The notes under the pieces are model-generated. The model ran no database searches and had not been told where the DNA came from. It was given only the letters and a program-made list of their open reading frames with translations. Source: a virus (lineage: Duplodnaviria; Heunggongvirae; Uroviricota; Caudoviricetes). From it: 15,526 nt of DNA. The stretch is from IMG/VR virus record IMGVR_UViG_2869924733_000009. One strand, 5' to 3'. The position numbers and the translations under genes were made by a program. Shown piece after piece: positions 13,468-14,493 of the stretch. Position 1 is the stretch's first letter, and every line of letters begins with the position of its first letter.

Positions 13468-14493
13468 ATGGGAAGACGAAGGAAAAATCCTGAACACGAA
13501 AAATTACCTCCAAATGTATACCCAAATAAATATAGTTATGTATGGAAACCAACATCCAGAGAATCTGTAACACTAACCGCCATCAAGGATGGTTTAGCTG
13601 CTTTATGGAAAAAGTATGAGGAAACTGTAAATAATCGCGATCGTGCAATGACATTCGGTCGCTTGTGGGAAAAATTCCTCGCCAGCGCCTATTACAGTGA
13701 CCTCAGTCCAAGAACACAAAAAGATTATCTGCAACATCAAAAAAAGTTGCTTGCCGTATTCGGTAAGGTGCCGGCAGATTCCATAAAACCAGAACACATC
13801 CGTCGATACATGGACAAGAGAGGGGAACAGAGTAAAACGCAAGCCAACCATGAAAAAAGCAGTATGTCCCGCGTTTACAGTTGGGGGTATGAGCGAGGGT
13901 ACGTGAAGGCTAACCCATGTGCAGGTGTAAGTAAATTCAAGGCCAAAAACCGCGAACGATATGTAACCGACAAAGAATACCAGGCAGTATTAAGCGTTGC
14001 ACCTCTTCCTGTTTTTATCGCAATGGAAATTGCCTATCTGTGTGCAGCGAGGGTTTCCGATGTGTTATCGCTGAAATGGGAGCAGATTGGAAACGACGGG
14101 ATCTTTATCCAGCAAGGGAAAACAGGAAAAAAACAGATAAAAGCATGGAGTCCACGATTACAGGCGGCGATCGAAAAAGCAAAACAGTTACCAACATCCG
14201 CCTATGTAATCAGCAATCAATACGGCAACCGATATATGTACAAAGGCTTTAACGAAATGTGGGTAGAAGCAAGAAATCGCGCAGGCAAAATTTCAGGTAT
14301 TTTAACCGACTTCACCTTTCATGATCTGAAGGCGAAAGGAATTTCAGACTATGAAGGAAGCAGTCGGGATAAGCAACTTTTCTCTGGTCACAAAACCGAG
14401 GGGCAAGTGCTAATCTATGACAGGAAGGTTAAAGTTTCACCGACACTTGATGTCCCGTTACCTGAAAATATTCCAAGAAAATATTCCAAGTAA
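13468..14493 (+). CDS. int: Lambda-family tyrosine integrase (341 aa), with Lys in place of the second conserved catalytic Arg (HDLK instead of HxLR)
   Basis: N-terminal arm-binding signature MGRRRKNPEHEKLPPNVY (lambda Int: MGRRRSHERRDLPPNLY); catalytic region ARVSD (Arg I), FHDLKAKG, GHK, LIYDR (Tyr). Transcribed toward and ending 52 bp from the tRNA 3' end. Confidence 0.9.
   Translation: MGRRRKNPEHEKLPPNVYPNKYSYVWKPTSRESVTLTAIKDGLAALWKKYEETVNNRDRAMTFGRLWEKFLASAYYSDLSPRTQKDYLQHQKKLLAVFGKVPADSIKPEHIRRYMDKRGEQSKTQANHEKSSMSRVYSWGYERGYVKANPCAGVSKFKAKNRERYVTDKEYQAVLSVAPLPVFIAMEIAYLCAARVSDVLSLKWEQIGNDGIFIQQGKTGKKQIKAWSPRLQAAIEKAKQLPTSAYVISNQYGNRYMYKGFNEMWVEARNRAGKISGILTDFTFHDLKAKGISDYEGSSRDKQLFSGHKTEGQVLIYDRKVKVSPTLDVPLPENIPRKYSK

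What the first reader, a model, noticed from the sequence alone, without database searches (positions are those of the whole stretch)
13468..14493. Integrase has Lys at the position of the second catalytic Arg (FHDLK versus lambda FHELR)
Aligning the C-terminal catalytic region to lambda Int gives Arg I (ARVSD), His (FHDLK), the GHK His and the Tyr nucleophile (LIYDR) all in register, but the residue matching lambda R311 is Lys and there is no Arg within several positions. That Arg is normally invariant in tyrosine recombinases. This may mean a catalytically impaired integrase in an already IS-ridden, xis-disrupted remnant, or a rare natural variant.
Basis: partly seen in the sequence, partly recalled or inferred. 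Interest (0 to 1): 0.5.

Follow-up and report, generated by a model that had tools for sequence, protein, structure and literature searches.

The report
Integrase clade that naturally uses lysine
The Lys in place of the second catalytic Arg is real, but every sampled member of a large, old clade of phage integrases has it, including prophages known to excise, so it is a normal family trait and not a sign of decay.

Summary
The 341-aa integrase (13468-14493, +) aligns end to end with lambda Int. The matches are R195=R212, K218=K235, H285=H308, H308=H333 and Y317=Y342, but K288 (AAG, 14329-14331) sits where lambda has R311. No alignment places another Arg there.

- All 120 closest 90%-identity clusters (55-99% identity) carry HD[LI]K.
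- Of 119 full-length 50%-identity representatives, 82 carry K. They form one clade that arose by a single R-to-K change, with no reversion.
- Within that clade, K288 is one of only five invariant columns.
- Phages ST64B (58% identity), KpF5, ZF40, Dobby and Smp131 carry it. So does the O157 Sakai Sp14 integrase at serU (98% identical).
- ST64B and Sp14 have been shown by others to excise and circularise.
- dN/dS against Sp14 is 0.046.

Published work reports 0.5% Lys at this position among natural tyrosine recombinases, and Cre R292K is active in vivo and in vitro.

What is broken here is the excisionase. An ISSfl7-like IS (12383-13298) splits the DUF4224 xis gene, so this prophage is probably stuck. 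The integrase itself looks intact. This is an ordinary finding of low to moderate interest.

The parts
13468..14493 (+). Intact lambda-type tyrosine integrase, 341 aa, of the Sp14/CP-933U/ST64B type. Its catalytic set is R195-K218-H285-K288-H308-Y317.
   Evidence: ORF. Pfam PF00589, PF22022 and PF14659. Full-length alignment to lambda Int. 98% identical to Sakai Sp14 Int ECs_2773. AlphaFold2 model with pLDDT 96.2 whose best PDB matches are lambda Int.
14329..14331 (+). Codon AAG = K288, at the position of lambda R311 / Cre R292 (Arg II).
   Evidence: Invariant in 82 of 82 K-clade representatives and one of 5 invariant columns in alignment A4.
14050..14052 (+). Codon for R195 (Arg I, equivalent to lambda R212).
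14119..14121 (+). Codon for K218 (beta-hairpin Lys, equivalent to lambda K235).
14320..14322 (+). Codon for H285 (His II, equivalent to lambda H308).
14389..14391 (+). Codon for H308 (His III, equivalent to lambda H333).
14416..14418 (+). Codon for Y317 (nucleophile, equivalent to lambda Y342).
12347..12382 (+). 5' fragment (codons 1-12) of the DUF4224 excisionase gene (xis), cut off by the IS.
   Evidence: Joining it to 13301-13468 restores the intact 67-aa protein found in E. coli FDAARGOS_536.
12383..13298 (-). ISSfl7/ISSfl1-like IS5-family insertion sequence inside xis, flanked by a TA target duplication (12381-12382 and 13299-13300).
   Evidence: 99.6% match to annotated ISSfl7 copies on Shigella plasmids. 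Terminal inverted repeats. Transposase DUF4096. Junctions read directly.
13299..13468 (+). 3' fragment of the DUF4224 xis gene. Its stop codon overlaps the int start (TGATG).
   Evidence: Pfam DUF4224; alignment to Sp14 and ST64B Xis.
14546..14635 (-). tRNA-Ser(CGA), serU. Its 3' end faces int, so this is the prophage attachment site junction.
   Evidence: ARAGORN; Rfam. The arrangement is the same in Sakai, where the Sp14 annotation ends at serU.

Best explanation
This is an intact lambda-type (arm-binding, core-binding and catalytic domains) tyrosine integrase of the Sp14/CP-933U/ST64B lineage. Prophages of this lineage integrate at the 3' end of serU. Lys288 is the ancestral, selected residue of a large monophyletic clade in which the catalytic pentad is R-K-H-K-H rather than R-K-H-R-H.

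Inferred mechanism: catalysis runs as in other tyrosine recombinases. Y317 attacks the scissile phosphate. R195 and the epsilon-amino group of K288 stabilise the non-bridging oxygens of the transition state. K218 acts as the general acid, and H285 and H308 assist. The Lys is therefore a working replacement for Arg II, not a lesion.

In this particular locus the integrase gene is intact, but its directionality factor (the DUF4224 Xis) is split by an IS and the prophage is riddled with other IS elements. The element is probably no longer able to excise, for reasons unrelated to K288.

Shown here: the alignment register, clade-wide invariance, a single origin, purifying selection, and the Lys in orthologues whose prophages excise. 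Inferred: the chemical role of K288 and the activity of this particular copy.
For: - Register: pairwise, multiple and profile alignments all put K288 on lambda R311, with Y317 on Y342.
- Fold: the AlphaFold2 model (pLDDT 96.2) matches lambda Int best (TM 0.78, rmsd 3.0 A to 1z19_B).
- Conservation: 120 of 120 nearest 90%-clusters have HD[LI]K. Of 119 full-length 50%-representatives, 82 have K, and the K and R sequences separate cleanly on an NJ tree that needs one R-to-K change and no reversion.
- Invariance: in 76 K-clade sequences sharing 32-60% identity with the query, the only invariant columns are R195, K218, H285, D286 and K288.
- Contrast with real decay: the two clade members without K (P0178, P0195) have also lost other catalytic residues.
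- Phages carrying the Lys: ST64B, KpF5, ZF40 (isolated from an induced lysogen), Dobby and Smp131.
- Function in orthologues: the Sakai Sp14 Int at serU is 98% identical with the same FHDLK, and circular Sp14 DNA was detected after mitomycin C (PMC2669165). ST64B excision, measured as attP formation, is reported in PMC12455584.
- Selection: dN/dS is 0.046 against Sp14 (41 synonymous, 8 non-synonymous differences) and 0.013 against phage 606R7.
- Chemistry precedent: Cre R292K is active in vivo and in vitro, vaccinia TopIB R223K keeps about 10% activity, and 0.5% of natural tyrosine recombinases have Lys at Arg II (PMC2943603).
Against: - No enzyme of this clade has had K288 tested by mutagenesis in any paper I could find.
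- Sp14 circles were much less abundant than those of other Sakai prophages and appeared only after induction.
- The ST64B paper attributes reintegration partly to another integrase, IntA.
- Cre R292K has a marked ligation defect, so a Lys enzyme may be slower unless other residues compensate.
- The phage record 606R7 includes host flanking genes, so it is not proof of clean excision.
- Activity of this very copy was not and cannot be tested here.
Confidence: 0.85

Rival explanations
1. The Lys is a disabling mutation. The integrase is catalytically impaired and part of the decay of this IS-ridden prophage remnant.
For: Arg II is 99.1% conserved among tyrosine recombinases. The prophage here is clearly decaying: xis is split by an IS and there are several other IS elements. 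Cre R292K has reduced activity with a ligation defect.
Against: The Lys predates this locus by a long way. It is invariant in 82 of 82 divergent clade representatives and in all 120 close clusters and arose once. It is present in orthologues whose prophages excise and in phages isolated as such. dN/dS of 0.01-0.05 shows selection for function. Truly decayed clade members lose several catalytic residues at once.
Confidence: 0.03
2. K288 is not the functional equivalent of Arg II. Another Arg, recruited from elsewhere in the fold, supplies the guanidinium, as in the CTnDOT integrase, where Arg I is replaced by an Arg from another position.
For: There is a precedent for relocated catalytic Arg in IntDOT (PMC8138268). 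Some Arg residues are enriched in the K clade relative to the R sister group (K clade vs R group): R230 (0.83 vs 0.22), R319 (0.90 vs 0.58), R143 (0.82 vs 0.19) and R112 (0.79 vs 0.17).
Against: None of these Arg residues is invariant in the clade, whereas K288 is 100% conserved. A bystander residue would not be. R112 and R143 lie in the core-binding domain, and R319 is also common in the R sister group. The tools gave no model coordinates, so distances could not be measured.
Confidence: 0.07
3. Alignment artefact: a different Arg occupies the catalytic position once a proper profile alignment is used.
For: None found. Pairwise identity to lambda Int is only 21-26%, so the question was worth checking.
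Against: phmmer, MAFFT and a 76-sequence profile all give the same register. It is anchored by the invariant H285 three residues before K288 and by GH308 and Y317 after it. There is no Arg within 12 residues on either side.
Confidence: 0.01

Closest known systems
Integrase of prophage Sp14 / CP-933U of E. coli O157:H7 (ECs_2773), integrated at serU
   Same: 98% amino-acid identity, the same FHDLK motif, the same upstream DUF4224 gene overlapping int, and the same position next to serU and mtfA.
   Different: 8 substitutions and a 1-residue indel. In Sakai the xis gene is intact; here an IS splits it.
Integrase Sb28 of Salmonella phage ST64B (serU-associated prophage in the literature)
   Same: 58% identity, the same catalytic set including the Lys, and a DUF4224 excisionase (Sb29) immediately upstream. 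Excision has been shown experimentally.
   Different: Shorter C-terminal tail (329 aa), a different host, and a divergent N-terminal arm-binding region.
Bacteriophage lambda integrase (PDB 1z1b, 1z19, 5j0n)
   Same: Three-domain architecture, aligned from residue 1 to the Tyr nucleophile. Five of six catalytic residues are identical. It is the best structural match.
   Different: 21-26% identity. Lambda has R311 where this protein has K288. Lambda Xis is a winged-helix protein of a different Pfam family from DUF4224. Lambda integrates at attB between gal and bio, not in a tRNA gene (lambda Xis and attB: textbook knowledge).
Engineered Arg II-to-Lys mutants: Cre R292K, vaccinia TopIB R223K, XerC/D equivalents
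   Same: The same residue change at the same catalytic position. These show that Lys can support cleavage and recombination (PMC2943603).
   Different: They are single substitutions in an Arg-adapted active site and accumulate covalent intermediate (a ligation defect). In this clade the Lys comes with clade-specific changes near the active site: T192C, A292I/V and hydrophobic-to-D/N at 318. Those changes may or may not compensate.

Membership tests
Tyrosine recombinase / phage integrase superfamily (Pfam PF00589) | Catalytic-domain profile match above the curated threshold | tested here: met
   PF00589 at 43.8 bits against a cut-off of 27.1, residues 183-317.
Tyrosine recombinase / phage integrase superfamily (Pfam PF00589) | Tyr nucleophile near the C-terminus | tested here: met
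   Y317 aligns with lambda Y342. It is Y in 119 of 121 aligned sequences.
Tyrosine recombinase / phage integrase superfamily (Pfam PF00589) | Arg I, beta-hairpin Lys, His II and His III of the RKHRH pentad | tested here: met
   R195, K218, H285 and H308 align with lambda R212, K235, H308 and H333.
Tyrosine recombinase / phage integrase superfamily (Pfam PF00589) | Arg II of the pentad (lambda R311, Cre R292) | tested here: not met
   This protein has Lys (K288). The published census of the superfamily already includes 0.5% Lys at this position and R292K Cre is active, so this is a tolerated variant and not an exclusion.
Tyrosine recombinase / phage integrase superfamily (Pfam PF00589) | Catalytic-domain fold | tested here: met
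   AlphaFold2 model with pLDDT 96.2. Foldseek top hits are lambda Int, XerA, Tn1549 Int, IntI4 and Cre, all at probability 1.00.
Tyrosine recombinase / phage integrase superfamily (Pfam PF00589) | Site-specific recombination activity | not testable with these tools
   Only indirect evidence: excision of Sp14 (98% identical Int) and ST64B reported in PMC2669165 and PMC12455584.
Lambda-type heterobivalent phage integrases | N-terminal arm-binding domain in addition to the core-binding and catalytic domains | tested here: inconclusive
   Pfam Arm-DNA-bind_1 reaches only 13.1 bits against a cut-off of 22. However, the HMM alignments to lambda Int start at residue 1 (MGRRR..LPPNVY). Foldseek also aligns 353 columns to full-length 1z1b_A.
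Lambda-type heterobivalent phage integrases | Adjacent upstream directionality factor (xis) and an attachment site at the prophage end | tested here: met
   A DUF4224 gene overlaps the int start, though it is disrupted by an IS here. serU lies 52 bp downstream of int. The second att copy is not in the window.
Lys-at-Arg-II clade (ST64B / Sp14 / ZF40 / Dobby / Smp131 integrases) | H-D-[LI]-K motif and placement inside the monophyletic K group | tested here: met
   The motif is FHDLK. The query falls in the K clade (82 K, 1 G, 1 N of 84) on the NJ tree rooted on lambda Int.

The most novel reading that the evidence does not exclude
The R-K-H-K-H integrases may be a mechanistically distinct subclass, not just a tolerated variant. 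The Lys, together with co-inherited active-site-proximal changes (Cys at Arg I minus 3, Ile/Val at Arg II plus 4, Asp/Asn right after the Tyr nucleophile), might shift the cleavage-ligation balance. For example, the covalent intermediate might last longer, as it does in Cre R292K, in a way that the DUF4224 directionality factor or host factors exploit. That would make these enzymes a natural system for studying what Arg II really contributes. It might also provide integrases with different kinetics for genome engineering.
Probability: 0.2. Interest if true: 0.5.

Novelty: already known. Interest (0 to 1): 0.25.

Why it matters
Mainly as a caution. A missing 'invariant' catalytic residue in a prophage integrase is not evidence of inactivation until the clade has been checked. 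Here a whole lineage uses Lys at Arg II. That lineage includes integrases of E. coli O157 effector-carrying prophages, Salmonella ST64B, and P2-like phages of Pseudomonas and Stenotrophomonas.

A 2021 survey of tyrosine recombinases calls the RKHRH pentad 'strictly preserved' apart from Arg I exceptions. The size and age of this Lys clade therefore seem under-appreciated, and it could be a useful natural counterpart to the Cre R292K and TopIB R223K mutant studies.

For annotating this locus, the practical point is that the prophage is immobilised by the IS in xis, not by the integrase.

Tried and rejected
- Alternative catalytic Arg. No alignment method moved the register. Arg residues enriched in the clade (R112, R143, R230, R319) are not invariant.
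- phiCTX integrase. I suspected that the well-used phiCTX integrase belonged to the K clade, because phage Dobby is a Citexvirus. A tblastn with Dobby Int did not recover phiCTX, so I dropped that line.
- Source organism. The fused IS-xis ORF is not on record. The IS/xis junction has no exact match in the species-representative genomes. No complete E. coli genome has the junction either, since their matches start at 13298. The ISSfl7-type IS points to Shigella or a Shigella-like E. coli, but this is not proven.
- Second att copy. The 3' end of serU occurs only once in the window.
- Literature. No paper was found that describes this clade's Lys or DUF4224 as an excisionase. Nunes-Duby 1998 and Figueroa-Bossi & Bossi 2004 are not held. 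From memory only, the latter reports that a tail-gene revertant of ST64B is infectious; I did not use this as evidence.

Full report
**What is at the coordinates**

The ORF at 13468-14493 (+) encodes a 341-aa protein. Its Pfam matches are the phage integrase catalytic domain (PF00589, 43.8 bits against a cut-off of 27.1), the integrase central domain and an N-terminal SAM-like domain. Downstream, on the minus strand, lies tRNA-Ser(CGA), i.e. serU, at 14546-14635. mtfA follows from 14729. The integrase therefore sits at the end of a prophage inserted at the 3' end of serU.

**Check of the observation**

- phmmer against the PDB aligns the protein with full-length lambda Int from residue 1 (E=7.9e-13). 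'FTFHDLKAKG' lies over lambda 'PTFHELRSLS'.
- MAFFT alignments give the same register.
- A profile built from 76 family members also gives it (lambda Int E=4.3e-27; K on R311, Y on Y342).
- The catalytic equivalences are R195=R212, K218=K235, H285=H308, K288=R311, H308=H333 and Y317=Y342.
- K288 is the AAG codon at 14329-14331.
- The closest Arg residues are 17 residues upstream and 12 downstream.
- An AlphaFold2 model (pLDDT 96.2) has lambda Int as its best PDB match (TM 0.78, rmsd 3.0 A to 1z19_B).

**Is the Lys a lesion? No**

- All 120 nearest 90%-identity clusters (55-99% identical; Escherichia, Salmonella, Klebsiella, Citrobacter, Dickeya, Pectobacterium, Sodalis, Hamiltonella and others) have HDLK or HDIK.
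- An exhaustive HMMER search of 1.84 billion 50%-identity representatives found 7,154 homologues.
- Of the 119 full-length proteins among the best 150, 82 have K, 36 have R, and two have G or N.
- On a neighbour-joining tree rooted on lambda Int, the K sequences form one clade of 84 (82 K, 1 G, 1 N). Parsimony needs a single R-to-K change and no reversion.
- I aligned 76 K-clade sequences that share only 32-60% identity with the query. The only invariant columns are R195, K218, H285, D286 and K288. The Lys is therefore as constrained as the undisputed catalytic residues.
- The two clade members without K have also lost other catalytic residues. That is what real decay looks like.
- The window gene differs from the Sakai Sp14 gene by 41 synonymous and 8 non-synonymous changes (dN/dS 0.046).
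- It differs from the phage 606R7 copy by 20 synonymous and 1 non-synonymous change (dN/dS 0.013).

**Functional orthologues**

- The protein is 98% identical to the integrase ECs_2773 of prophage Sp14 (the CP-933U equivalent) of E. coli O157:H7 Sakai. That gene lies in the same place next to serU and mtfA and has the same FHDLK.
- Asadulghani et al. detected the circular, excised form of Sp14 after mitomycin C treatment, though at lower abundance than other prophages (PMC2669165).
- Salmonella phage ST64B Int (58% identity) also has FHDLK. ST64B excision, measured as attP formation, is documented in PMC12455584.
- The Lys is also present in Klebsiella phage KpF5 and in Pectobacterium phage ZF40, which was isolated from an induced lysogen.
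- It is present in two P2-like phages as well: Pseudomonas Dobby and Stenotrophomonas Smp131 (LHGLK).
- More distant relatives keep Arg: Burkholderia KS5 and Pseudomonas LESphi2.

**Mechanism**

Gibb et al. (PMC2943603) surveyed more than 12,000 tyrosine recombinases. They found 99.1% Arg and 0.5% Lys at Arg II. Cre R292K is active in vivo and in vitro but accumulates covalent intermediate. Vaccinia TopIB R223K retains about 10% activity. Modelling indicated that a Lys can reach the O1P non-bridging oxygen.

The most likely account is therefore that K288 does the job of Arg II in transition-state stabilisation. This step is inferred, not shown.

The R-to-K switch is accompanied by clade-specific changes close to the catalytic residues in sequence:
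- Thr to Cys three residues before Arg I.
- Ala to Ile/Val four residues after Arg II.
- A hydrophobic residue to Asp/Asn right after the Tyr nucleophile.

All of these trace to the same single branch, so co-adaptation cannot be separated from shared ancestry. An IntDOT-style relocated Arg is unlikely. No K-clade-enriched Arg (R112, R143, R230, R319) is invariant, whereas K288 is.

**What is actually broken at this locus**

The gene upstream of int is a DUF4224 protein. It occupies the xis position in Sp14, ST64B, ZF40, KpF5 and Dobby, and also in the Arg-bearing LESphi2.

In the window it is split after codon 12 by a 916-bp ISSfl7/ISSfl1-like IS5-family element (12383-13298). The element has terminal inverted repeats and a TA target duplication. 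Removing 12383-13300 in silico restores the intact 67-aa protein. No complete E. coli genome out of 5,426 has this junction. The IS type is typical of Shigella.

The rest of the window carries an IS630-like transposase and nested IS66-family copies. The remnant is probably locked in place because it lacks Xis, and probably much else, not because of the integrase active site.

**Comparison with what is known, and novelty**

The protein is an ordinary, already annotated integrase present in over a thousand complete E. coli genomes. The existence of natural Lys variants at Arg II, and the competence of Lys at that position, were published in 2010.

I did not find a description of this specific clade as a Lys clade in the papers I could search. 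A 2021 survey calls the pentad strictly preserved and mentions only Arg I exceptions. Searches for Lys replacement and for DUF4224 as an excisionase returned nothing.

I rate it as already known in kind, with a modest residual interest: a large natural R-K-H-K-H lineage is available for mechanistic comparison with the Arg-to-Lys mutants.

**Verdict**

The 'impaired enzyme' interpretation is rejected and the 'rare natural variant' interpretation is accepted, with the refinement that the Lys is clade-defining and ancient. Interest is 0.25.

Noticed in passing
window 12347-13468: The DUF4224 xis gene is split after codon 12 by a 916-bp ISSfl7/ISSfl1-like IS5-family element (12383-13298) with a TA target duplication. 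Removing it in silico restores the intact 67-aa protein. The IS end creates a new 73-aa fusion ORF (13247-13468) that keeps most of the DUF4224 domain.
   Followed up: yes
window 2740-8212: This looks like an IS66-family element (tnpA 3713-4387, tnpB 4384-4731, tnpC 4751-6352) inserted in inverted orientation into another copy of the same IS. Three 100%-identical inverted repeat pairs flank it. The arms 5134-5502 and 5495-6385 overlap by 8 bp, consistent with an 8-bp target duplication. A ~35-bp stretch (5099-5133) has no counterpart in the outer copy.
   Followed up: partly
window 9151-9202 (+): A DicF antisense RNA gene (Rfam RF00039, 76.7 bits), as in Qin-type lambdoid prophages. The adjacent minus-strand ORF 9238-9783 (181 aa) has no Pfam match.
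   Followed up: no
window 9847-12288 (+): An intact 813-aa Exo VIII (RecE-like) protein with a C-terminal Rv2179c-like 3'-5' exoribonuclease domain. Asadulghani et al. report that this recombination system is intact in only one of seven Sakai prophages.
   Followed up: no
window 306-1337 (-): An IS630-like transposase (DDE_3 plus HTH domains) next to YdaT-toxin-like and HTH genes (1421-2070), in the prophage immunity/replication region.
   Followed up: no
L004 20894-21097 (Sakai Sp14) and L002, L005, L007, L008, L009: The xis-position gene of all these phages is DUF4224, in both the Lys clade and the Arg sister group (LESphi2). The Sakai paper judged the Sp4 and Sp14 Xis 'probably non-functional' for lack of DNA-binding motifs, yet both prophages excised. 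DUF4224 therefore looks like an uncharacterised directionality-factor family, and I found no paper on it.
   Followed up: partly
L001 (phage record ON470580.1, vB_EcoM-606R7): This 'phage' record continues past int into host chromosome (serU, mtfA, tRNA-Asn, a second integrase, ybtS). It is therefore not a clean excised genome and does not by itself prove that the integrase works.
   Followed up: partly
L003 6171-7221 (E. coli FDAARGOS_536): The closest complete-genome copy of this integrase by DNA (99.9%) is annotated as frameshifted. Individual copies of the gene do decay, but by frameshift, not at K288.
   Followed up: no
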